From Candidatus Dojkabacteria bacterium (GTDB lineage Bacteria; Patescibacteriota; Dojkabacteria; J137): a stretch of 64,000 bases of DNA. Below the pieces are notes generated by a model. It was not told the DNA's origin and did no database searches. It saw only the letters and a program-made list of their open reading frames with translations. The stretch covers positions 23,778 to 87,777 of the forward strand of contig JAUQWV010000001.1 in assembly GCA_030834985.1 (NCBI GenBank), given 5' to 3'. Of this stretch, positions 4,080-59,186 are shown piece by piece (position 1 is the stretch's first letter; every line of letters begins with the position of its first letter). The translations under genes were made by a program, and so were the position numbers.

Positions 4080-4184
4080 AAAGATTAGGTTAAGAATAAC
4101 TGTAGTTATTCTATCATAAGTGTACCAGGGAATTTAGTGATTGGAGGGCGGAATCCCGCTCCTCCAGATCGGAAATAAAGGATT

Positions 4185-4421
4185 TTATGCGTAAGTTGGC
4201 AGAGGGTTTTTTCGTTTATACTCCTCCAGCCTTCTTAATGCATCTTGTGGCGCGCTCGCTAAAGCGGTATTGAGCGCTTGCTCCGCGTCAAATCGCCGAT
4301 AGCCAGCAGCCTCGACTTCAAAACTTGAGCCGTGCCTGCTTTTTTCTACGGTTGTTTTGACAGCTGAATAGTACTCCTTATACGCCTCAATTAACGCTTC
4401 TGCGAGTTGGTCATTAGACAT
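4185..4421 (-). CDS. Hypothetical small protein (78 aa), GC-rich orphan gene
   Basis: ORF with SD (aaggaga) 8 nt upstream of the ATG on the minus strand. Local GC is much higher than its neighbours. Confidence 0.4.
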   Translation of the reverse strand: MSNDQLAEALIEAYKEYYSAVKTTVEKSRHGSSFEVEAAGYRRFDAEQALNTALASAPQDALRRLEEYKRKNPLPTYA

Positions 4422-4564
4422 GCTATTCTCCTTTTTTACCGAGCTTAAAATTTTATCATGTGTTACTCAAACCTGGCAACTAAAAGAGCTGTTGGTGATT
4501 GTAGAATTTAAACTTAGTATGAGCTGTGCTAAACTTTTCTTAATTTAACTTACTTACAAGATTT

Positions 4565-5572
4565 ATGGAACAACTCACACTTATTGCAGGGTTAGTTTTA
4601 TTAGCTATGGCTGTAACTTTCGCCTATGCGCCGTTTTTAATTAAACTTTTATATAAATTTCAAATTGTTGTTCGGCATCAGCTTATGGACAATAAAATGA
4701 ATGAAGAGTTTGTAAAAATCCAGGGACATAAAACAGGAACTCCAACACTTGGAGGTTTGATGATTGCTGTTTCAGTGTTTTTTCTAGTTATGTTTTGGGT
4801 TCCTGCATCTGACTTAAAGAATGTTTTTTTAATTTTCTGGACACTCTTTACATTGTATGGATTAATTGAAGGTTTAATTGTTTATGCAAGAAAGTTAAGT
4901 GATAAATTTAGAGCATTGGAATCTAGTTTTGAGTGGCGTTTGGGAAAACTTGCAATTTTGTATCTTCTAGGACTTTGGGCAGTCTATTCTATTGTTACTA
5001 TGCTAGCTATAAGTGAGATCACGCTTTTTGGCTTAACAATTTTAATTAATCCTTTAACAATAATTATTGGCTCATTCTTTTTTATTCTTGCGATGTATGC
5101 AATGGAAATCACTGATGGGGCAGATGGATTAGTCACAGGGCAATTTTTAATTGCATTCATATCTTATACCGTAATTAGTTTAGTTTCTGGCAACTTGAAT
5201 TTATTGCCATACCTGGCGTTTATGATAGGATCTTCTCTTGTGTATCTATATTTTAATATTAATCCTGCAAGAGTTTTTATGGGAGGAACGGGCACTTTCC
5301 CAATCGCATTTGCAATTTTATTCTTTTCTATTCTCACAAATACCGTAGATATATTATTAATAATGGGATTAATATTTTGGACAGAACTTGCAACTAGCGC
5401 TTTACAAATTTTATGGATTAAATTCCTTAAAAAGAGATTATTTAAAATTGCACCTTTTCATCATTATTTTGAGTCAATCGGCTGGCCGGAAACAAAGATG
5501 GTTCAAAGGTTTTGGTTATTTTCAGCAATTTTTGCAATACTCTCTTTATTTATATTTGGATTAACCAGATAG
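4565..5572 (+). CDS. mraY: MraY-family (phospho-MurNAc-pentapeptide transferase-like) polytopic membrane protein; canonical catalytic Asp residues not found
   Basis: Clear MraY blocks: KTGTPTLGG, EITDGADGL, ARVFMGG.G, KIAPFHHYFESIGWPE..RFW. No DD dipeptide anywhere in the protein. The GDVGS position reads GGTGT and HHH reads HHY. Confidence 0.8.
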   Translation: MEQLTLIAGLVLLAMAVTFAYAPFLIKLLYKFQIVVRHQLMDNKMNEEFVKIQGHKTGTPTLGGLMIAVSVFFLVMFWVPASDLKNVFLIFWTLFTLYGLIEGLIVYARKLSDKFRALESSFEWRLGKLAILYLLGLWAVYSIVTMLAISEITLFGLTILINPLTIIIGSFFFILAMYAMEITDGADGLVTGQFLIAFISYTVISLVSGNLNLLPYLAFMIGSSLVYLYFNINPARVFMGGTGTFPIAFAILFFSILTNTVDILLIMGLIFWTELATSALQILWIKFLKKRLFKIAPFHHYFESIGWPETKMVQRFWLFSAIFAILSLFIFGLTR

Positions 5573-5574
5573 AA

Positions 5575-6062
5575 ATGCGAAGAGGGCAGCTGCAATATGC
5601 GAGCTGCCCTCTGAAACCGGGATTCTCCATTCCCGGATTGAACCTGGGGGAAGACTCCCCACAGGCGGGCCAAATATTTGACCATCGCCAGATTTGCTCG
5701 TCCCGCAGCCGGGGCGCGACCGATGCTGTTCACTCTGAGAGTGTCCAGCGCAGTGTTGTCGCGCCAATCAGGGACGCTGCGCAAATCTTACAGCCGTTGC
5801 CGGCTGTGGCTTAGGTCTCCCCGCTTACGCTCCCTGGTGGGAGCCTGGGCGGGGCTATCTTTCTTCAGAAAACCCATCCTTTTTTCCTTTCGCGAAGGTT
5901 CGCCAATAAAGGTGACCGCTGGTAGTGCCCATCGTTCTACCCTTGAGACGAGATCTCAAGCGGCTGATTACGCCACCCACCTCGGCGGTTTGGCTCGGGC
6001 TTTCCGCAGAGCCGCCTGAAAGAGCTTGAAGTTTTTATTAGAAACTCACTCAGGCGGCTCTG
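5575..6062 (-). ncRNA. rnpB: GC-rich structured non-coding RNA, most consistent with RNase P RNA (rnpB); tmRNA not excluded
   Basis: ~60% GC block in a ~33% GC genome. Only Arg-rich overlapping ORFs on both strands, none with an SD. On the minus strand, in order: hairpin cagagccgcctga..tcaggcggctctg, directly followed by GGAAAGCCCGAGCC (cf. CR-I GGAAAGUCCGGGCUCC), then GCCAAACCGCCGAGGTGG, AAGGGTAGAACGATGG (cf. CR-II AGGGUGAAANGGUG), then GCTCCCACCAGGGAGCGTAAG (cf. ACUCCACCCGGAGCAAGG). A CR-V/P4 3' strand was not found by eye. Confidence 0.45.
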
Positions 6063-6208
6063 TTAGTTGTTTATTTATTAAAAAGCTATATTCATTATAT
6101 ACTTTTATGCCCGGATAAGTCAATACTTTTTGGCAACAAAACAATAAGCCGCTCTCCCCTCAAATCCTTTTACCTGATATAATTAGTGCGTTTTGTTAAT
6201 CGACGAAA

Positions 6209-8146
6209 ATGTCTACTAATCAGTTTATTCGAAATTTTTGCATAATTGCTCATATAGACCACGGCAAGTCTACCCTAGCTGACCGCCTTATTGAGACTAC
6301 GGGTGCGGTAGCAAGTCGTGAAATGAAAGATAGAATGCTTGATACTTTAGAATTAGAGCAAGAGCGTGGAATCACAATTAAACTCCAGACTGCTCGCTTA
6401 AAATATAATTATAAAGGCGACAAAGCAGAAAAAGGTGAATATACTCTTAATCTTATAGATACTCCAGGTCATGTTGATTTTAGTTATGAAGTTTCAAGAT
6501 CTGTTGCTGCTAGTGAAGGGTGCTTATTGTTAGTTGATGCAACGCAAGGCATTCAGGCGCAAACTTTAACAACTGTGTATAAAGCAATGGAATACGATCT
6601 AAAAATTATTCCAGTGATAAATAAAATTGATATGGATATTGCTGAAGTCGAACGAACAAAGCAAGAGATGATAGAAACTTTTGGCTTCAGTGAAGATGAA
6701 ATTATTTTGGCTTCAGGAAAATCTGGTATAGGTGTGAAAGAAATTTTAGATGCAGTTGTTGAAAGAATTCCTGCATATAAAAAAGAAGATACAAAAATTC
6801 TGTCAGACGAAGATGAGTTAGCTGTAATAGAAGGCAAGGAAATATCAAATACAAAAGCTGTAGTTTTTGATGCTTTTTTTCATGAATATAAAGGAGTAAC
6901 TGCCTTAATTAAAGTTATAAGCGGTGAAATAAAAAAAGGCGATAAAGTTTATTTTATAAGTACTCAAACAGATGTGTCACCAGTAGAAATTGGGTATCTA
7001 ATGCCTAAAATGACAGAAACTTCAGCTATTAAAGAAGGTGAAGTTGGATATATTGCTACGGGCTTAAAGGATATTCATAAAGTTCATTCGGGCGATACAA
7101 TTACTTTATTTAAACAAAACAATTCCCATACAAAAATTCAACCTTTAAAAGGTTACAGACAGCCAAAGCCAATGGTTTATGCTAGTTTGTATCCTGTTGA
7201 AGCTAGTGATTATGAATCTTTTAAAGAGGCATTAGAAAAATTATCATTAAACGATGCTGCTCTAACTTATCAAAAAGAATATTCTCAGGCACTTGGAACT
7301 GGATTTGTTTGCGGTTTTTTAGGCTTGCTACATCTTGAAATCACTCAAGATAGATTAGAACGTGAATATAATATAGATCTTATAAGCACAACTCCAACTG
7401 TAGAATTTAGAGTTTTATTATCAACTAAAGATTATTCCAAGGTTCCGAATATTAATGTTTCAAATATAGATCCCGAAACAAATATTGCAACAATTAGAAC
7501 TGCTGCCGAATTTCCTGAAGGAAGTCACTTAGAAGAAGTTTACGAGCCGTGGGTAAAGTTAGACATTATTACTCCCGAAGAATATATTGGATCAATAATG
7601 GAACTTTGCCAAAATCGAAGAGGCGTTTATAGGCACATGAACTTTTTGAATAAATCAGGAAGTAAAAATCATGCAATCATTGAATACGAAATACCAACAG
7701 TAGAAATTATTGTTAACTTTTTTGATAAATTAAAGTCACTAAGCCACGGTTATGCATCAATGGATTATTCTTTTTTAGAATATCGAAAGGGAGATATTGT
7801 AAAGGTTTCATTATTAGTAAATGGTGAGCCAGCAGAATCATTAAGCTTTTTAACTCATAGATCAAATTCTCAAAGGCGCGGGAGAGAGATGGTTGAAAAA
7901 TTGAAGGAGCTCATCCCGCGCCAGCAATTCAAAGTTCCAATTCAAGCTGCCATTGGTAGCCAGGTGATTGCCCGAGAAACGATTGATGCTTATAAAAAAG
8001 ATGTGCTTGCTAAGCTATATGGTGGTGATGTAACTAGAAAATTAAAATTGTTAGAAAAGCAGAAAAAAGGTAAAAAGAAAATGAAAGCTATTGGCAGTGT
8101 CGAGATTCCTAAAGAAGCTTTTTTAGCTGCGCTAAAAATTGACTAA
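6209..8146 (+). CDS. lepA: Elongation factor 4 (LepA) GTPase
   Basis: G-domain motifs (AHIDHGKST, DTPGH, NKID) and a LepA-specific C-terminal domain. Confidence 0.9.
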   Translation: MSTNQFIRNFCIIAHIDHGKSTLADRLIETTGAVASREMKDRMLDTLELEQERGITIKLQTARLKYNYKGDKAEKGEYTLNLIDTPGHVDFSYEVSRSVAASEGCLLLVDATQGIQAQTLTTVYKAMEYDLKIIPVINKIDMDIAEVERTKQEMIETFGFSEDEIILASGKSGIGVKEILDAVVERIPAYKKEDTKILSDEDELAVIEGKEISNTKAVVFDAFFHEYKGVTALIKVISGEIKKGDKVYFISTQTDVSPVEIGYLMPKMTETSAIKEGEVGYIATGLKDIHKVHSGDTITLFKQNNSHTKIQPLKGYRQPKPMVYASLYPVEASDYESFKEALEKLSLNDAALTYQKEYSQALGTGFVCGFLGLLHLEITQDRLEREYNIDLISTTPTVEFRVLLSTKDYSKVPNINVSNIDPETNIATIRTAAEFPEGSHLEEVYEPWVKLDIITPEEYIGSIMELCQNRRGVYRHMNFLNKSGSKNHAIIEYEIPTVEIIVNFFDKLKSLSHGYASMDYSFLEYRKGDIVKVSLLVNGEPAESLSFLTHRSNSQRRGREMVEKLKELIPRQQFKVPIQAAIGSQVIARETIDAYKKDVLAKLYGGDVTRKLKLLEKQKKGKKKMKAIGSVEIPKEAFLAALKID

Positions 8147-16559: not shown

Positions 16560-16633
16560 AGCTAGCATATACGTTATAATTAAACGCTCGTAAAAATATC
16601 CATGCTATAGGCTGGAAATAAGGAGATCATGTA

Positions 16634-16852
16634 ATGCCAGACAAACCGCAAGAAACAGTTGGCGGCACTTTTTTGGTGCCACCTACCCCACCTGCACACA
16701 TCCCGTCTGAGTTCGAGGTCCTCCCCCCATTCCGTCTGAACAGAGAGAAAGGGGAGGCAAAGAAGCCGTCAGAACCAAGCGGATACTGCGGGTACGGATA
16801 CGACGACATTACAGCCGAACAGCGCGAAGCCCACGAGGATTATGGGGGCTGA
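16634..16852 (+). CDS. Hypothetical Pro-rich acidic small protein (72 aa)
   Basis: SD aaggagatc 7 nt upstream. Terminator hairpin 16869-16892. Confidence 0.5.
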   Translation: MPDKPQETVGGTFLVPPTPPAHIPSEFEVLPPFRLNREKGEAKKPSEPSGYCGYGYDDITAEQREAHEDYGG

Positions 16853-16868
16853 GCGCTAAAACACCTTA

Positions 16869-16900
16869 AGGGCGGGCTAAATCGCCCGCCCTCAAAAACA
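16869..16900 (+). terminator. Rho-independent terminator-like hairpin (agggcgggc/gcccgccct)
   Basis: 9-bp GC stem and 6-nt loop, followed by caaaaacatttcttc. Confidence 0.5.
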
Positions 16901-16912
16901 TTTCTTCTAATA

Positions 16913-16940
16913 TTCACTAATTTACTATCGCTGATATAAT
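16913..16940 (+). promoter_or_regulatory. Sigma70-like promoter (TTCACT-16-TATAAT) for the 16987 gene
   Basis: Hexamers at 16913-16918 and 16935-16940. 5'-UTR hairpin ggttc..gaacc follows. Confidence 0.4.
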
Positions 16941-16986
16941 ACTGTATCCTGGTTCAATTTAGAACCGGAATAAAAAGGGGATGTAA

Positions 16987-17193
16987 ATGTCTCTAAGACG
17001 GGGTGACATAGAAAGTCAGAAGGCTCGTGAACTTGCAGAGGGATATCGCGAAGAGATCTCCACTGACGTACCGAATATAATCATCTTAAGGAGGCGTAAG
17101 CTTCTGAATGATGACGGTAATGGGAGTGAGATGAACATAAGCACTCAGCTTGACGACTTTGTATGTGAATGTACCGACTGCTTTGACGACTAG
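16987..17193 (+). CDS. Hypothetical acidic small protein (68 aa; C-terminal CECTDC)
   Basis: SD aaaagggga. Followed by terminator 17212-17250. Confidence 0.5.
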   Translation: MSLRRGDIESQKARELAEGYREEISTDVPNIIILRRRKLLNDDGNGSEMNISTQLDDFVCECTDCFDD

Positions 17194-17211
17194 CAAACCC
17201 TAACCACATAA

Positions 17212-17250
17212 GTCTGAGAATCTAAAGATTCTCAGACATACTTATTTTGT
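17212..17250 (+). terminator. Rho-independent terminator (gtctgagaatc/gattctcagac + T-tract)
   Basis: Perfect inverted repeat followed by atacttattttgt. Confidence 0.6.
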
Positions 17251-17262
17251 CACCCAAAATCG

Positions 17263-17290
17263 TTGACTTTGTATATATTTGTAATATAAT
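17263..17290 (+). promoter_or_regulatory. Sigma70-like promoter TTGACT-16-TATAAT
   Basis: Consensus -35 at 17263-17268 and consensus -10 at 17285-17290, upstream of the 17343 gene. Confidence 0.55.
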
Positions 17291-17342
17291 AGTATTTAAC
17301 CCTAATTGAATAGGGAATCGTTCTATAGCAAGGAGTTGAAAA

Positions 17343-17579
17343 ATGTTGGGTCATCAAGAATCTAGGTCAAAGTTTCGCCACCCAGCGCGTCTCCCCAACT
17401 ATCAGAAGCCGCAAATACTTAGAGAAGGAGTAGCGGCTTATGAGGAGGAGAAGGAAGACGCTACGGCCCACGCGGGTAGCTGGGAGTACTGGCCTAACGA
17501 CCCGAGTTTGATTCAGCAGTTTGATGACGAGGCTGTGGCGGATGAACCGCCCGGCCAAAATGGCGTTGACTGGATTTAA
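17343..17579 (+). CDS. Hypothetical acidic small protein (78 aa)
   Basis: SD caaggagtt. Terminator 17604-17640. Confidence 0.5.
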   Translation: MLGHQESRSKFRHPARLPNYQKPQILREGVAAYEEEKEDATAHAGSWEYWPNDPSLIQQFDDEAVADEPPGQNGVDWI

Positions 17580-17603
17580 TCCAGCGCGCTATATACTCCT
17601 ACT

Positions 17604-17640
17604 GTCCTGAGCAGCATGCTGCTCAGGACAATCCTTTATC
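17604..17640 (+). terminator. Rho-independent terminator (gtcctgagcagc/gctgctcaggac)
   Basis: 12-bp stem followed by aatcctttat. Confidence 0.55.
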
Positions 17641-17676
17641 CTATAGTAATTTTTTCTAAATTTTCTTCTAAAATCC

Positions 17677-17704
17677 TTGCATCATAATAGTTTTATGATA
17701 TTAT
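17677..17704 (+). promoter_or_regulatory. Sigma70-like promoter TTGCAT-16-TATTAT with TG extended -10
   Basis: Located upstream of the 11-codon ORF. Confidence 0.45.
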
Positions 17705-17737
17705 CGAAACATCCTTAAAAGAAAGGAGGTGCGCAGC

Positions 17738-17773
17738 ATGAAGAACAAGAAGTTTAATAATTGCTGCAAGTAG
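17738..17773 (+). CDS. 11-codon mini-ORF (MKNKKFNNCCK) with a strong SD
   Basis: aaaggaggt is 8 nt upstream of the ATG. Followed by a ~70-nt untranslated stretch, then hairpin 17843-17875 whose loop contains aaggagg. Confidence 0.35.
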   Translation: MKNKKFNNCCK

Positions 17774-17842
17774 ACGACCCTGCCGGCCGGATACCGATCG
17801 AAGTGACGTAGTTAGTCCTTCCCACCCCTTATTCTTTTGGAA

Positions 17843-17900
17843 GCTAGACCCCCTCCAAGGAGGCTGGGGTCTAGCCTCAGCTTATTCCCCTTTTACTAAA
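17843..17900 (+). terminator. Terminator-like hairpin (gctagacccc...ggggtctagc) + T-rich tail
   Basis: 10-bp stem, SD-like loop, followed by ctcagcttattcccctttt. Confidence 0.5.
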
Positions 17901-17958
17901 TTAAAGAAACTATTGTATACTTTTTTACCATCGTTTTAGAGCCAGGAGGGCCTTTTAG

Positions 17959-18168
17959 ATGGCGGATGAAAGTTGTCCAAATTGTAAACGGCCGTTAACA
18001 AACGGCAGATATATGGTACGGTGCTCGCGTTGCGGAAAGGCTGCCTGTTATAAGGTAGACTTTCTAGGAGGCGCTAAGCCTAGTGAGTGCTGTGCTCATA
18101 ATTTATGGCAGAACGAAGCCTGCCTAAAAGAAGGTGAACGGCATAAATTCAAGCCGTCCAGCGAGTAG
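17959..18168 (+). CDS. Small Cys-rich zinc-ribbon-like protein (69 aa)
   Basis: CPNC...CSRC pairs plus additional Cys. SD ccaggaggg. Terminator 18173-18205. Confidence 0.5.
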   Translation: MADESCPNCKRPLTNGRYMVRCSRCGKAACYKVDFLGGAKPSECCAHNLWQNEACLKEGERHKFKPSSE

Positions 18169-18172
18169 TAAA

Positions 18173-18205
18173 GCGCCCTGCTTTTGCAGGGCGCAAAACC
18201 TTTCA
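18173..18205 (+). terminator. Rho-independent terminator (gcgccctgc/gcagggcgc)
   Basis: 9-bp stem and tttt loop, followed by aaaaccttt. Confidence 0.55.
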
Positions 18206-18260
18206 TTTAGTATTTCTAAGCATAGAATTAAAGTGATATAATTCATAGCTCATATCGTAT

Positions 18261-26962: not shown

Positions 26963-27301
26963 ATGCTAAGAAAACAACAAAGATTAAAATCAGGTGAGAT
27001 ACCTCATTTAGCAAGAAGGGGCCGAAGAGTATATTCCGAGGACTTTGAACTAAGAATGTGGTGGGATAATAAATTTAAAGAGCCTGCATTTGCGGTTTCG
27101 GTATCTACTACTGTTGATAAAAGAGCTGTTGTTCGAAACCGCATAAGACGAAAATTTAAATCTGCAATAAAGGATTTAATAGAAAAAGGTGCTAAATTCA
27201 GGAATGGAAAATACTTAGTAATTGTAAGAAGCGCCAAAATAGTTGATGTTCCTATTGAAGATTTATCAAAGCTTTTGTACAAAGCTGTAGCAACTAACTA
27301 G
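26963..27301 (+). CDS. rnpA: RNase P protein component
   Basis: 112 aa, basic, RNRIRR(K) motif. Confidence 0.8.
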   Translation: MLRKQQRLKSGEIPHLARRGRRVYSEDFELRMWWDNKFKEPAFAVSVSTTVDKRAVVRNRIRRKFKSAIKDLIEKGAKFRNGKYLVIVRSAKIVDVPIEDLSKLLYKAVATN

Positions 27302-42016: not shown

Positions 42017-42315
42017 TACTGATTGAGTGGGATCACCCATTAATGAGTATTAAAAATACTCGCTCTTTAACAACTGTTTAAACAGTTGTGAAAAATCTTA
42101 AACATTAACTGTATGGCCTAAAAGCTTGCAGGTTTAAGGTATTTCTCGCAACTATTGCTTAAATATTTATATAAGCACTCAATGCGGGCAAATTGTTAAT
42201 TATAAAAATAGTTAGCAGCTTGTCCGTCATTGAGTGCTTCCCTCGCGAGGGCATTCAAAACGGCGTATCGAAAGTTTCGCAAGTTTATTCAAGCCCTGAG
42301 AGGGCGGAGGTCAAA

Positions 42316-43740
42316 ATGCAGAAACGCAAGATGTTCTTGATCTTGGCAATAGCCTTGATCGTGGCTCTGGCGCTGCCCCTTGGGGTCAGCGCGCAGGGGA
42401 ATGAAATCGTGGCATACACCTATGCCGGGCAGACTTACACATTCGTCAGCGGTCACCCAGTTTTTCAGCCAGGTGATACAACGACAACCGGTAAGCTGCT
42501 GAGTTCCTCATACCCATTCAGCGTGCAATCATACGCTAACCGTACGGCAATGGAGAACGGAAACGTTCTCGGTCGTGCAGATGCTGAATATGTAGCTACA
42601 CTGCTCGGTGATGAGTACACGCTAAGTGTGCAAGGCACCACAGCAGCTATGTGGTTGGAGGTCATCGTAGGAAGTATCGAATCAGATGGCTTCTGGTACG
42701 ATGGCACTCTGACCTCACTGCATAACGGGCACTTAGTCGTCCCAGCCGGTGACACGCAGGTCACGCCGCAGGTAATGTCTTCAAATGCTGTCTTCGTGGT
42801 GGTCAACTATCTCGATGCAGCGGCAGTGGAGGCATCCACCCCGGCGGGTAGCCTTCCGGCAAATTGTACAACCCTTGTGGGTCAGCAATGCACTGTCGAA
42901 GTGCGCGGTACGGATGCGTCTATGATGCTGGAAATACTCCCTGCTTCAACGGCTAGTGGCAGCGTCACCGCAACGGTAATCCCAGCAGTGGTAGCTACTA
43001 CAACGCCGAATCCTTTGCTTGGAGAGGTAACACCTATCCCAGCACAGAGTGCTACTGGACTGACCCCGTCTGCTGTGGTCTTCCCTTCTGCTTCGAACAC
43101 GTGGGTGTGGGGTCCCATTCAAGGACAAAATCCGATGATCCGGGATTGGCAGATAACCTTGTCACAGTTGGGGGTAACTCCGGCTTTGTGGCAAACGCCA
43201 CCCAACGTGGATAATCCGTTGGTTGACAATAGTCTGTTCCCGACCACTGCTCAGTCACCTGCGCCATGGGGCATCGAATGGCCCGGTACCGACCTGACGT
43301 TGTTTTGTCAGCAAGATACGCGGTGCGACGAAGTAATTTCGGCGCAACACATACGGTACTATACTGGCAACCTTGAACCAAACGGTATGGGGTCTGTCAA
43401 GCCGTGCCATCAGCAGGGTGGGATCGGATGCATGTTGATCCAGGTCAACTCGAACGGTGAGACTGATTCGGTTTTCACTGATCAGGGTTTCATTCGGGGT
43501 TATACGTTCCAAGGGCGTTACTGGGATGGCAATCATCTGGGTAATGGTCTATGGGGGTTAATCTCGTTTGGGACTGCAAACATGACCAATCAGTTGACCA
43601 ACATCAACCAGCCGGGTCTGACCAATGCCGGTGGCAACTGCTCTACGGCGGCGGGCTGCATTGGAACATATATTCAATTGCAGTTCCTGTCGGGAGGTTT
43701 CGAAGAGGGCTATGGCGAGTTTTTGTATATCAAGCCATAG
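42316..43740 (+). CDS. Secreted hypothetical protein (signal peptide; Thr/Val/Ala-rich), high-GC gene
   Basis: SD ggaggt 7 nt upstream of the ATG at 42316; the longer ORF from 42193 is unlikely. Signal peptide MQKRKMFLILAIALIVALALPLGVSA. Confidence 0.6.
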   Translation: MQKRKMFLILAIALIVALALPLGVSAQGNEIVAYTYAGQTYTFVSGHPVFQPGDTTTTGKLLSSSYPFSVQSYANRTAMENGNVLGRADAEYVATLLGDEYTLSVQGTTAAMWLEVIVGSIESDGFWYDGTLTSLHNGHLVVPAGDTQVTPQVMSSNAVFVVVNYLDAAAVEASTPAGSLPANCTTLVGQQCTVEVRGTDASMMLEILPASTASGSVTATVIPAVVATTTPNPLLGEVTPIPAQSATGLTPSAVVFPSASNTWVWGPIQGQNPMIRDWQITLSQLGVTPALWQTPPNVDNPLVDNSLFPTTAQSPAPWGIEWPGTDLTLFCQQDTRCDEVISAQHIRYYTGNLEPNGMGSVKPCHQQGGIGCMLIQVNSNGETDSVFTDQGFIRGYTFQGRYWDGNHLGNGLWGLISFGTANMTNQLTNINQPGLTNAGGNCSTAAGCIGTYIQLQFLSGGFEEGYGEFLYIKP

Positions 43741-44419: not shown

Positions 44420-45397
44420 ATGCGCAAGTCACGTAAGTGGCTGTTGATCCTCCCTGTTCTCGTTTTGGCTATTGTTGTGATCGCAGTTCTGCTTCCTAAA
44501 GCTCCTGTTCTGGAAACAGTTCGGTGGGCTAGTCTGAACGACTGGGCCCCTGATGGCGCTATCAGTCGTGTAGGAGATCGCTGGTATTTTTCCAGCGGTA
44601 CCTACGGTAGAGTTTACGATCCAGACTTTGGCAGCGGGTGGAACCAAGACGTTATTGGTCCATCCAATGTACCTGAGGCGTTTGACCAAAACTACGCGGC
44701 ACCGGGTTCTGTTCTTCAGATAAATGGAAAGTGGTTTATGTTCTACCATGGTGAGAGCCATGAATGCGCAGGACATTTCCCCTTCCATGCCGGCATTGGG
44801 CTGGCAACCTCTGAAGATGGGTATTTCTGGACGCGTCAAGGTCAGATTCTTTCTACTTGGGAAGAACGTCCGACGTGTCAGGAAAACCGCGCAAGCGGTG
44901 TGGGGTATCCTAGTGCAGTCCAGCACGACGGATATATTTATCTTTACTTTGTATCTTGGACATCGGCGGAAGCCGATGCCACTCATGTGGCAAGATGCGA
45001 AGCCGAGCATATTCTCGAATCTGATTGCTGGAAGAAATATTTCCAAGGCGATTGGATGGAACCTGGCTTGGGCGGTCACAGCACTCCGGTGCTGAGTCGT
45101 TCAAGTGAAGCAGAGCTGTATTTAGCAGCTCCACAAGTTCAAATCTCTGAAGGTACTTTCTTAGGAGTGTTCGAGACCAATCTTGGGTTTGTGACCGCCA
45201 CGTCACAAGACGGTATTGTATGGTCACAACCTAAAACAATCTTTGAGTTCCCAAAACCTCATATCGAGGCGACAGGACAAGATTGGTACAGCTATCCTAC
45301 CCTGATCCGTGAAGACGGTCAGTGGTGGCTGTATATGGCTCGGCAGGACAGCAGCCTTGTGCATCACATGCACAGAATTGCTGTAACACTCCCATAA
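44420..45397 (+). CDS. Secreted hypothetical protein, possible beta-propeller glycoside-hydrolase-like fold; high-GC gene
   Basis: SD aggaga. Signal/anchor. W/Y/G-rich repeats. No firm family assignment. Confidence 0.5.
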   Translation: MRKSRKWLLILPVLVLAIVVIAVLLPKAPVLETVRWASLNDWAPDGAISRVGDRWYFSSGTYGRVYDPDFGSGWNQDVIGPSNVPEAFDQNYAAPGSVLQINGKWFMFYHGESHECAGHFPFHAGIGLATSEDGYFWTRQGQILSTWEERPTCQENRASGVGYPSAVQHDGYIYLYFVSWTSAEADATHVARCEAEHILESDCWKKYFQGDWMEPGLGGHSTPVLSRSSEAELYLAAPQVQISEGTFLGVFETNLGFVTATSQDGIVWSQPKTIFEFPKPHIEATGQDWYSYPTLIREDGQWWLYMARQDSSLVHHMHRIAVTLP

Positions 45398-58752: not shown

Positions 58753-59088
58753 ATGGCATACGATGAAGCATTAGCAGGACGAGTAAGATCAATACTAAGC
58801 TCTAGAAACGGAGTTGGTGAAAGATCTCTTTTTGGCGGATTAACTTTTAGCATTAATGGAAACATGGTAGCTAGCGTGAATAGCCGTGGTCTTACTTTGA
58901 GTGTTGGAAAAGAAAATTATGAAAAAGCTTTAGGAATGTCAGGTGTTAAGAAGGTGATGATGGGTGAAAAACCAATGCCTAATGTTGTAATGGCTGAAGA
59001 TCCATCTAATATTAGTAATGAAGATTTAAATATATGGGTAAATATGGCAGCAGATGCTGCGGCAGCAAAACCACCGAAGGTAAAATAA
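58753..59088 (+). CDS. TfoX/Sxy N-terminal domain protein
   Basis: ERSLFGGLTFSINGNMVASV matches the TfoX_N core. Confidence 0.5.
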   Translation: MAYDEALAGRVRSILSSRNGVGERSLFGGLTFSINGNMVASVNSRGLTLSVGKENYEKALGMSGVKKVMMGEKPMPNVVMAEDPSNISNEDLNIWVNMAADAAAAKPPKVK

Positions 59089-59186
59089 ATTGAGTTTATA
59101 GAATAGAGTTTTAAGCCGCCCCGAAGCTTCGGGGCGGCTTAATTGTTCCTCTGATGTTATTATGTAACTAGTTATCATTTTTTCTT

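What the first reader, a model, noticed from the sequence alone, without database searches (positions are those of the whole stretch)
5575..6062. GC-rich structured RNA locus, probably RNase P RNA on the minus strand, tightly wedged between mraY and lepA
This 480-nt block is ~60% GC. It has reciprocal Arg-rich junk ORFs on both strands and no SD. It is dense with hairpins. Read on the minus strand it shows, in the correct order, a P3-like hairpin directly abutting GGAAAGCCCGAGCC (cf. the universal CR-I GGAAAGUCCGGGCUCC). It then shows GCCAAACCGCCGAGGTGG, AAGGGTAGAACGATGG and GCTCCCACCAGGGAGCGTAAG, which resemble E. coli M1 RNA segments GCAAACCGCCGAUGG, AGGGUGAAAGGGUG and ACUCCACCCGGAGCAAGG. 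I could not find a convincing CR-V (ACAGAANCCGGCUUA) partner for P4. The RNA may therefore be a divergent or CPR-type RNase P RNA, or a different large structured RNA such as tmRNA or an unknown class. The rnpA protein gene is present at 26963-27301, so an rnpB is expected somewhere in the genome.
Basis: partly seen in the sequence, partly recalled or inferred. Interest (0 to 1): 0.5.

Follow-up and report, generated by a model that had tools for sequence, protein, structure and literature searches.

The report
Unclassified structured RNA gene, not RNase P
The GC-rich block between mraY and lepA is a real, separately transcribed, highly folded non-coding RNA gene on the minus strand; it is not RNase P RNA but belongs to an uncatalogued, fast-changing RNA family of one small group of Dojkabacteria, which in sister lineages sits next to a toxin-like HEPN ribonuclease gene.

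Summary
A block of about 515 nt at 56-60% GC sits in a 35% GC genome, folds far better than shuffles (z = -8), and has no credible ORF.

It has its own near-consensus minus-strand sigma-70 promoter (6123-6094). It ends in a perfect hairpin (5612-5581) with a conserved tail.

The RNase P reading fails:
- No Rfam hit in the window or in seven homologous loci.
- The CR-I look-alike (12/15) is unique to this lineage.
- CR-V is at chance level, and no P1/P2/P4 can be formed.
- The homologous module is present or absent between strains about 95% identical, so it is not essential.

The window keeps only the 5' hairpin and the GC-rich module. It has no AU hairpin, no 3' segment and no HEPN gene. Function is inferred: probably an accessory protein-binding RNA, possibly an orphan of that module.

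The parts
6118..6123 (-). -35 hexamer TTGACT of the RNA's promoter
   Evidence: Promoter scan gives 11 of 12 matches with an 18-nt spacer. The same element is present in 7 lineages.
6094..6099 (-). -10 hexamer TATAAT
6084..6093 (-). Conserved start-site box GAATATAGCT; transcription start inferred at about 6087
   Evidence: TATAAT-(2-6 nt)-TA[T/A]AG[C/T]T is conserved in all 7 lineages examined. A narrower form of the box (TATAAT-2-4 nt-TATAG[C/T]T) is unique in the 128 kb of both strands of the window. blastn window vs L093 gives E = 1.7e-8 over this segment. The start site itself is inferred, not measured.
5573..6087 (-). Inferred full RNA, about 515 nt
   Evidence: Bounded by the promoter and the terminal hairpin plus tail. 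GC 0.56; minus-sense MFE -240 kcal/mol against -233 for the plus sense.
6007..6062 (-). 5' long hairpin (14 + 6 base pairs, includes two G.U pairs)
   Evidence: I1. Every homolog has a long hairpin at the same distance from the start box, with a different sequence. Compensatory changes between L093 and L097 were read.
5992..6005 (-). GGAAAGCCCGAGCC, the look-alike of RNase P CR-I
   Evidence: 12/15 to GAGGAAAGUCCGGGC, p about 0.007, but absent in the six homologs tested. In the MFE it forms a 10-bp local helix with GGGUUUUCUG.
5982..5990 (-). Family motif AACCGCCGA
   Evidence: Unique in the whole window. Found in 62 of 20000 shuffles of the block. Shared with L101, and GAACCG with L095.
5902..5914 (-). 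Family motif CACCUUUAUUGGC (the 'UUAUUGG box')
   Evidence: A regex built from the relatives alone hits twice in 128 kb, once here. Found in 47 of 20000 shuffles. Present in L101, L095, L099, L091 and L093.
5886..5898 (-). Small hairpin CCUU-CGCGA-AAGG following the box
   Evidence: Equivalent hairpins in the relatives have CCUU/AAGG, CUUUC/GAAAG or CUUU/AAAG stems.
5819..5854 (-).
   Evidence: Hairpins in the same position in L091, L093, L097 and L101 have unrelated sequences.
5680..5817 (-). Multi-helix domain closed by GACC..GGUC and GCC..GGC; starts with the CCUAAG motif (5815-5810)
   Evidence: MFE and centroid agree. ACAACACUGCGCU is shared with L101 (13-mer, one mismatch; read).
5643..5665 (-). 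Hairpin CCUGUGGGGAG-UCUU-CCCCCAGG
5617..5636 (-). Hairpin CCGGGA-AUGGAGAA-UCCCGG; contains the best but chance-level CR-V match
   Evidence: 10/15, p about 0.72.
5581..5612 (-). Terminal hairpin with an 11-bp perfect stem; terminator-like
   Evidence: I5. Positional equivalents precede the tail in L101, L095, L091 and L093. The U-tract is interrupted, so the consensus terminator scan does not flag it.
5573..5581 (-). Conserved tail UUCGCAUUU, abutting the mraY stop codon (5570-5572)
   Evidence: Unique in the window; found in 16 of 20000 shuffles. In L101 the same TTCGCA is the -35 of a 10/12 promoter for the HEPN gene. The window has neither the -10 nor the gene.

Best explanation
The block is an independent non-coding RNA gene on the minus strand, running from a sigma-70 promoter at 6123-6094 and a start near 6087 to a terminal hairpin at 5612-5581, about 515 nt in all. 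It belongs to an uncatalogued, modular, rapidly diverging RNA family found only at the mraY-lepA locus of one Dojkabacteria subclade.

In sister lineages the transcript is 0.7-1.1 kb. It consists of a 5' hairpin, a variable GC-rich module, one or two sequence-conserved AU-rich hairpins, and a conserved AT-rich 3' segment. In six of the seven, a clade-specific 169-aa HEPN-fold gene with an invariant R-N-xxx-H motif follows the terminator. This is the layout of RNA-neutralised HEPN toxins such as AbiF/RCd22.

The window's copy keeps only the promoter, the 5' hairpin, the GC-rich module and the terminator. It lacks the AU hairpins, the 3' segment, the small upstream ORF and the HEPN gene.

Shown: the transcription signals, the strong folding, the absence of coding potential, homology of the locus, and accessory status of the module.

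Inferred: it acts in trans as a stable, protein-binding accessory RNA, originally part of (or a cassette within) the HEPN-linked module and now free-standing. It is not an essential housekeeping RNA.
For: Transcription signals:
- Promoter 11/12 on the minus strand. The promoter and start box are conserved in 7 lineages.
- Terminal hairpin with the UUCGCAUUU tail is shared with L101 and L095.
- Minus-sense folding is more stable than plus-sense in 5 of 5 lineages.

Folding and coding: z = -8.2. No protein signal.

Homology of the locus: synteny and strand are conserved in L091, L093, L095, L097, L099+L104, L101 and L227. Motifs defined from the relatives are unique in the window and colinear with L101.

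RNA-level structure in the relatives: 79 pairs, of which 16 have changes on both sides, against 6.9 +/- 1.9 in shuffles and 2-3 in slid controls. The G.U pairs in the AU hairpins are invariant.

Accessory status: L227 equals L097 minus one AU hairpin and the GC-rich module, at 95-96% identity.

Precedent for an RNA plus HEPN toxin: PMC12373285.
Against: Interior similarity between the window RNA and its homologs is weak:
- nhmmer finds nothing.
- The colinear 7-mer chain is only marginal (L101, 6 of 300 shuffles; L093, 15 of 300; the other four not significant).
- The shared motifs were noticed by eye before being tested.

There is no covariation evidence for the window's own helices. The only close sequences are 100% identical, and the SNP-free zone also covers mraY.

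The window has none of the HEPN-linked parts. L227 shows the GC-rich module is not needed where the HEPN gene is kept. So the link between this particular RNA and the HEPN protein is indirect.

No expression data are available. The terminal hairpin lacks a clean U-tract.
Confidence: 0.6

Rival explanations
1. It is a highly divergent or reduced RNase P RNA (rnpB), the partner of the rnpA gene at 26963-27301.
For: - rnpA is present.
- A hairpin is followed by a 12/15 CR-I match with p about 0.007.
- CPR RNase P RNAs can score below Rfam noise cut-offs and can lack helices, including in a Dojkabacteria genome (PMC8172020).
- Size and GC richness fit.
Against: - No RNase P model is listed at E <= 10 on 900 nt. 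In a comparable search, long models were listed down to about 10-12 bits.
- No hit in any homolog.
- CR-V is at chance level, and CR-I and CR-V are absent in all six homologs tested.
- A P4 helix would have 7 pairs with a mismatch and would compete with stronger local helices.
- No P1 or P2 complement exists around the 5' hairpin.
- The interior is unalignable between species whose LepA is 85-89% identical.
- The homologous module is deleted in L227.
- The locus is absent next to lepA in L001, L002 and L098.
Confidence: 0.04
2. It is a non-functional relic: what remains of the longer HEPN-associated RNA locus after deletions, still carrying a promoter but no longer under selection.
For: - The window lacks the AU hairpins, the 3' segment, the small ORF and the HEPN gene that accompany the family elsewhere.
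- The tail TTCGCA looks like an orphaned -35 of the lost HEPN promoter.
- The module is dispensable in L227.
Against: - In a 35% GC genome, an unselected 500-nt stretch would not be expected to stay at 56-60% GC with z = -8 folding, a perfect 11-bp terminal stem, a 20-bp 5' hairpin and an 11/12 promoter.
- GC-rich, tetraloop-capped versions are also kept in L099 and L101.
- The timing of any loss is unknown.
Confidence: 0.2
3. It is a cis-acting element read on the plus strand: a long structured 3' UTR or terminator of mraY, or an insulator ahead of lepA.
For: - The plus strand also folds well (z = -7.4).
- The 5581-5612 hairpin lies 9 nt after the mraY stop codon.
- The 6007-6062 hairpin is followed by a T-rich stretch on the plus strand.
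Against: - The conserved promoter, start box and tail are all minus-strand features.
- Minus-sense folding is more stable in 5 of 5 lineages.
- The G.U pairs in the relatives' hairpins would be C.A mismatches on the plus strand.
- In most relatives a minus-strand gene separates mraY from the RNA.
Confidence: 0.05
4. It is a small protein-coding gene or a horizontally acquired GC-rich gene fragment.
For: ORFs of up to 113 aa lie on both strands.
Against: - No Pfam hit.
- No gene is called in 10 contigs.
- No true homolog in 1.84 billion proteins.
- No ORF is conserved in the homologs.
- No match in the phage or plasmid collections.
Confidence: 0.01

Closest known systems
AbiF/RCd22-type RNA-neutralised HEPN toxin (type III-like toxin-antitoxin; abiF motif RF03085; PMC12373285)
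   Same: In the sister lineages the layout matches: a housekeeping-sigma promoter, a non-coding RNA carrying one or two conserved hairpin motifs, and a terminator, followed on the same strand by a HEPN-fold gene with an R-N-xxx-H motif.
   Different: - The RNA is 0.7-1.1 kb rather than about 130 nt.
- The hairpins are AU-rich, unrelated to the abiF motif (no RF03085 hit), and lie 340-440 nt apart.
- The protein is 169 aa with no Abi_2 domain, and appears to have its own promoter.
- Above all, the window has no hairpin motif and no HEPN gene.
Bacterial RNase P RNA (RF00010/RF00011)
   Same: Similar size and GC richness. A 5' hairpin is followed by a 12/15 match to CR-I. rnpA is in the window.
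   Different: - No covariance-model hit.
- No CR-V, and no P1, P2 or P4.
- The CR-I match is not conserved in the homologs.
- The module is dispensable and lineage-restricted.
ToxIN-type type III toxin-antitoxin systems
   Same: The operon logic of the relatives is the same: RNA, then terminator, then endoribonuclease gene.
   Different: ToxI is a tandem array of 34-36-nt repeats, and ToxN is not a HEPN protein. Here there is no tandem array.
Large lineage-restricted structured RNAs of unknown function (OLE, GOLLD, ROOL, raiA)
   Same: Large and highly structured, with variable and conserved modules. Not tied to an obvious cis-regulated gene.
   Different: No hit to any of their Rfam models. 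Far narrower distribution and much faster sequence turnover.

Membership tests
Bacterial RNase P RNA (RF00010/RF00011; also archaeal, nuclear and type T models) | Covariance-model match | tested here: not met
   No RNase P family is listed at the gathering score or at E <= 1 over the window, nor at E <= 10 over 5400-6300. None in homologs L091, L093, L095, L097, L099 or L101. Caveat: scores below roughly 10 bits are not shown, and Lui et al. needed a 5-bit threshold for some CPR genomes.
Bacterial RNase P RNA | CR-I (GAGGAAAGUCCGGGC) following P3 | tested here: inconclusive
   The window has a 12/15 match right after a hairpin (p about 0.007). All six homologous RNAs are at chance level (5-6 mismatches, p 0.5-0.99).
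Bacterial RNase P RNA | CR-V (ACAGAANCCGGCUUA) pairing with CR-I to form P4 | tested here: not met
   The best match is 10/15, p about 0.72. The candidate pairing AAG(C)CCGAG/CCCGGUUU has a mismatch, and both strands sit in stronger local helices.
Bacterial RNase P RNA | P1/P2 helices joining the 5' and 3' ends around P3 | tested here: not met
   Read. The AU-rich 5' leader has no complement between the last internal hairpin and the terminal hairpin.
Bacterial RNase P RNA | Essential gene with a conserved core among close relatives | tested here: not met
   The interior is not alignable between species with 85-89% identical LepA. The module is absent in L227, which is 95-96% identical to L097.
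Bacterial RNase P RNA | Pre-tRNA 5' cleavage, stimulated by RnpA | not testable with these tools
   Needs an in vitro assay.
tmRNA | tRNA-like domain plus tag reading frame | tested here: not met
   ARAGORN finds none in the window or in six related loci. No Rfam hit.
RNA antitoxin of a type III-like or AbiF-like system | RNA gene directly upstream of, and on the same strand as, an endoribonuclease toxin gene | tested here: not met
   The window has no HEPN gene within 64 kb (tblastn); mraY follows, in convergent orientation. The feature is met in L091, L095, L097, L099, L101 and L227.
RNA antitoxin of a type III-like or AbiF-like system | Conserved repeated RNA motif that would bind the toxin | tested here: not met
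   The AU hairpin CUUAAG.AAA...UUARG is absent from the whole window. The relatives carry one or two copies.
RNA antitoxin of a type III-like or AbiF-like system | abiF motif (RF03085) or ToxI-type repeats | tested here: not met
   No such Rfam hit in the window or the relatives. No tandem repeats in the block.
RNA antitoxin of a type III-like or AbiF-like system | The RNA neutralises the toxin | not testable with these tools
   Needs co-expression and toxicity assays.
OLE, GOLLD, ROOL, raiA, HEARO and other large Rfam RNAs | Covariance-model match | tested here: not met

The most novel reading that the evidence does not exclude
The family is a new kind of RNA partner for a new minimal HEPN ribonuclease in CPR bacteria: a long transcript in which conserved AU hairpins (protein recognition or processing sites) bracket large, fast-evolving, GC-rich structured cassettes. 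The cassettes are gained and lost by recombination between the hairpins, giving a repeat-cassette-repeat organisation reminiscent of the RNA toxin-antitoxin ancestors proposed for Cas13. The window's RNA would then be such a cassette expressed on its own, retained because it has an activity independent of the HEPN protein, for example as a decoy or sensor for an invader's protein.
Probability: 0.2. Interest if true: 0.8.

Novelty: new variant of a known kind. Interest (0 to 1): 0.5.

Why it matters
CPR bacteria have tiny genomes with little spare DNA. A strongly promoted, GC-rich 0.5-1.1 kb non-coding transcript kept in several lineages is therefore unlikely to be idle.

If the HEPN link is real, this would be an RNA-controlled HEPN system with an RNA roughly ten times larger than in AbiF/RCd22, in a phylum where defence and toxin-antitoxin biology is almost unexplored.

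There is also a practical lesson for annotation. A GC-rich structured island plus rnpA in the same window does not make an rnpB. The CR-I look-alike here is a false lead that only comparison with homologs exposes.

Tried and rejected
**No signal from known RNA families.** Rfam was run at three stringencies on the window and on the relatives, and found nothing relevant. ARAGORN found no tmRNA, including permuted forms.

**No wider match.** blastn against phages and plasmids found nothing.

**Searches for homologs that gave little:**
- LepA-based loci from GTDB genomes: the nearest species (76-77% LepA identity) lack both the synteny and the RNA.
- Strain-level contigs are 100% identical over the block.
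- SNP density as a test of constraint was uninformative. The invariant zone 4482-6667 also covers all of mraY and the start of lepA, and the contigs had been selected for identical MraY.
- nhmmer with single sequences and profiles did not link the window RNA to the relatives.
- MAFFT plus RNAalifold on the 5' hairpins of all lineages failed, because the hairpins share structure but not sequence.
- The metagenome scan with the promoter pattern was too permissive: 120 mostly random hits and one known lineage, L160.

**Mistakes and false leads:**
- My first AU-hairpin pattern was mis-specified and was corrected.
- The L098 'AU hairpin' match lies inside coding sequence and is a chance hit.

**Alternatives considered and dropped:**
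- A tRNA gene split by a group I intron: there is no T-arm or acceptor halves and no intron model hit.
- A group II intron domain 5, 6S RNA or SRP RNA: the shapes do not fit and there are no hits.
- A small conserved ORF in the relatives' 3' segment: the frame is broken in L097.
- The ORF-free, GC-elevated stretch at 16.5-18.3 kb as a rival rnpB site: it holds plausible small proteins and has no RNase P signal.

**HEPN protein.** It has no sequence-level relative in the PDB. It gives only sub-threshold DUF3644 hits in Pfam and nothing in PADLOC or NCBIfam.

Full report

Yes. The window averages 34.7% GC. The stretch 5548-6080 is the most GC-rich island in it, at 0.585-0.605 in 200-nt windows. 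Both strands fold far better than dinucleotide shuffles: minus -240.4 kcal/mol (z = -8.2), plus -233.6 (z = -7.4).

The ORFs inside it (41-113 aa, both strands) show no sign of coding. They have no Pfam domain. Gene callers leave the 636-nt gap empty in ten independent contigs. The longest ORF has no genuine relative among 1.84 billion representative proteins; its three 'hits' are a 29%-identical 34-residue match multiplied by tandem repeats.

The neighbours are an MraY-type transferase and LepA, and rnpA is confirmed.

**2. Strand and boundaries**

A near-consensus sigma-70 promoter lies on the minus strand: TTGACT, 18 nt, TATAAT, 11 of 12 matches, at 6123-6094. It is followed by a box, GAATATAGCT.

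The RNA would start near 6087 and open with a 56-nt hairpin (6062-6007). It ends in a hairpin with a perfect 11-bp stem (5612-5581), followed by UUCGCAUUU, which abuts the mraY stop codon.

The U-tract is interrupted, so this is not a textbook intrinsic terminator; the consensus scan does not flag it. The start and end points are inferred from sequence, not measured.

**3. Related loci**

The organism is a Dojkabacteria (CPR). Its nearest GTDB species have 76-77% identical LepA and lack both the synteny and the RNA.

MraY, LepA and HEPN-gene homologs from the large protein collection led to seven other lineages that do keep the mraY...lepA arrangement with a long uncalled gap:
- L091/L160
- L093
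- L095
- L097
- L099+L104, two contigs that overlap at a palindrome where the assembly broke
- L101
- L227

All share the minus-sense promoter and start box. blastn between the window and L093 gives E = 1.7e-8 over this segment.

Their transcripts are 0.7-1.1 kb (measured for five lineages) and modular. They consist of:
- a long 5' hairpin;
- a variable, often GC-rich segment rich in GNRA- and UUCG-capped hairpins (L099 and L101 especially);
- one or two copies of a sequence-conserved AU-rich hairpin, CUUAAGUAAAU..GUUUAUUUAAG, extended by outer stems whose sequence differs between copies;
- a conserved AT-rich 3' segment;
- a terminator.

In the three mutually alignable relatives, the consensus structure of the middle segment plus both AU hairpins has 79 pairs. 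Sixteen have changes on both sides, against 6.9 +/- 1.9 in column shuffles and 2-3 when partners are slid. Both AU hairpins keep an invariant G.U pair that would be a C.A mismatch on the other strand. This rests on only three sequences, and the structure was derived from the same alignment, so it is supportive rather than conclusive.

Minus-sense folding is more stable than plus-sense in five of five lineages.

**4. Is the window's RNA really a member?**

The interior is too diverged for nhmmer. Colinear 7-mer chaining is only marginal: L101, 6 of 300 shuffles; L093, 15 of 300; the others not significant.

Homology therefore rests on four things:
- the same flanking genes, strand and promoter/start box;
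- the terminal hairpin plus UUCGCAUUU tail, shared with L101 and L095;
- a 5' hairpin at the same distance from the start box;
- short motifs defined from the relatives.

Of those motifs, AACCGCCGA, UUCGCAUUU and the start box are each unique in the 128 kb of both strands of the window. The 'UUAUUGG box' hits twice in 128 kb, once inside the block. All four block occurrences fall on the minus strand in the same order as in L101. Per-motif chance in the shuffled block is 0.0008-0.003 for the three motifs that were shuffle-tested; the start box was not.

I noticed these motifs by eye before testing them, so the joint probability is optimistic. I consider membership well supported but not proven for the interior.

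**5. The RNase P hypothesis**

- **Covariance models.** No RNase P model of any type appears at the gathering score, at E <= 1 over the window, or at E <= 10 over 900 nt. None appears in any homolog. In a comparable local search, long models were listed down to about 10-12 bits. This matters because Lui et al. (PMC8172020) found that 10 of 35 complete CPR genomes needed thresholds as low as 5 bits, and that a Dojkabacteria RNase P RNA lacks most of P15. A CM negative alone is therefore not decisive.
- **Core elements.** The window's CR-I look-alike is genuinely unusual (12/15, p about 0.007). Its best CR-V match is at chance (10/15, p about 0.72). None of the six homologous RNAs tested has a CR-I or CR-V match better than chance (p 0.3-0.99). 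Elements that are nearly invariant across bacteria would thus not be conserved within this RNA's own family.
- **P4.** The would-be P4 has seven pairs with a mismatch. Both of its strands are engaged in stronger local helices: CGGAAAGCCC/GGGUUUUCUG and CCGGGA/UCCCGG.
- **P1 and P2.** Neither can be drawn.
The 'CR-II-like' AAACCGCCGA is a family motif; in L101 its CGCC closes a GAAA hairpin. The 'P15-like' string is a hairpin nested in a longer hairpin.
- **Dispensability.** L227 is 95-96% identical to L097 on both sides of a clean 347-nt difference that removes one AU hairpin and the whole GC-rich middle module. The two alignments overlap on the hairpin, which is the signature of recombination between the repeats. 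A module that comes and goes between such close strains is not an essential ribozyme.

I put RNase P at about 4%.

**6. What accompanies the family**

In six of the seven other lineages, a 169-aa minus-strand gene follows the terminator. The evidence on this gene:
- It is more conserved than MraY in the same genomes: 78-82% identity, against 72-77% for MraY relative to the window.
- It is restricted to eight clusters among 5.8 billion proteins.
- It gives only sub-threshold DUF3644 hits by sequence.
- A confident model (pLDDT 83.5, pTM 0.83) matches HepT HEPN toxins as its top nine Foldseek hits.
- R110 and H115 are invariant, in the motif KYRNIFVHRD.

No MNT-type antitoxin gene is nearby.

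In L101 the three strongest promoter-like sites are all minus-strand. They serve a small hydrophobic ORF (12/12), the RNA (11/12) and the HEPN gene (TTCGCA-17-TATAAT, 10/12). The last overlaps the conserved terminator tail.

The layout of promoter, RNA with one or two conserved hairpins, terminator and HEPN RNxxxH gene parallels the experimentally characterised AbiF/RCd22 system. There, the RNA neutralises the HEPN toxin by direct binding (PMC12373285).

**7. What this means for the window**

The window's copy has the promoter, the 5' hairpin, a GC-rich module and the terminal hairpin with its tail. That module carries the UUAUUGG box, the small hairpin, H3, the CCUAAG motif and a multi-helix domain.

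It lacks the AU hairpins, the 3' segment, the small ORF, and any HEPN gene in 64 kb.

L227 is the mirror image: it keeps everything HEPN-linked and lacks the GC-rich module. So the two parts are separable, and the window keeps the part whose role is least clear.

Either the ancestor had the full module and this lineage lost pieces (the orphaned TTCGCA tail hints at this), or a simple RNA gene came first and the sister clade added the HEPN-linked parts. The LepA identities (85-89% to all relatives) do not polarise this.

Maintenance of 56-60% GC, near-perfect stems and a strong promoter in a 35% GC genome argues for continued selection. I could not test this directly.

**8. Verdict**

This is a real, minus-strand, separately promoted structured ncRNA gene from an uncatalogued, modular, accessory family. 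It is not RNase P, tmRNA or any other Rfam family.

The most likely mode of action is as a stable, trans-acting, protein-binding RNA related to a HEPN-associated RNA module. That is inferred from context in relatives, not shown. In this genome it is free-standing and possibly vestigial.

I give about 0.85 to its identity as such an RNA gene and about 0.3 to the HEPN-linked function of this particular copy.

Noticed in passing
[not shown]
   Followed up: yes
L097 vs L227; L099/L104: The AU-rich hairpin repeats behave as recombination points. L227 equals L097 minus one repeat and the 347-nt segment between them. One assembly (L099/L104) breaks exactly inside the palindrome.
   Followed up: partly
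L101 3385-3531(-), L093 10229-10414(-), L097 7674-7829(-), L227 4045-4200(+): A 48-61-aa ORF with a hydrophobic N-terminus and a basic C-terminus lies just upstream of the RNA in the relatives. In L101 it has its own 12/12 promoter and is followed by a hairpin (read from the sequence). It is absent from the window. It resembles small membrane toxins, but this was not tested.
   Followed up: no
window 4183-4424 (78-aa ORF on the minus strand, 4185-4421): This GC-elevated small ORF (about 50% GC, no family hit) is hypervariable among otherwise near-identical strains: 72 variable sites in the 485 nt from 4080 to 4564. ORFs of 73-92 aa occupy the same position in the relatives.
   Followed up: partly
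window 4482-6667: A 2.2-kb stretch has no variable site in ten strain contigs, while the flanks differ by up to 3%. It covers mraY, the RNA and the start of lepA. It looks like a recent sweep or recombination block, though the contigs were selected for identical MraY.
   Followed up: partly
window 16560-18260: A GC-elevated stretch has no ORF of 100 aa or more. It holds four plus-strand ORFs of 68-78 aa, one with CxxC pairs, downstream of an 836-aa ORF and upstream of tRNA-Gln. There is no Rfam hit.
   Followed up: partly
window 42193-43740 and 44420-45397: Two ORFs (515 and 325 aa) lie in regions of about 50-54% GC, in a 35% GC genome. They may have been acquired horizontally.
   Followed up: no
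window 59082-59184(+): A weak, sub-threshold match to the gammaproteobacterial rimP leader (31 bits against a gathering score of 47).
   Followed up: no
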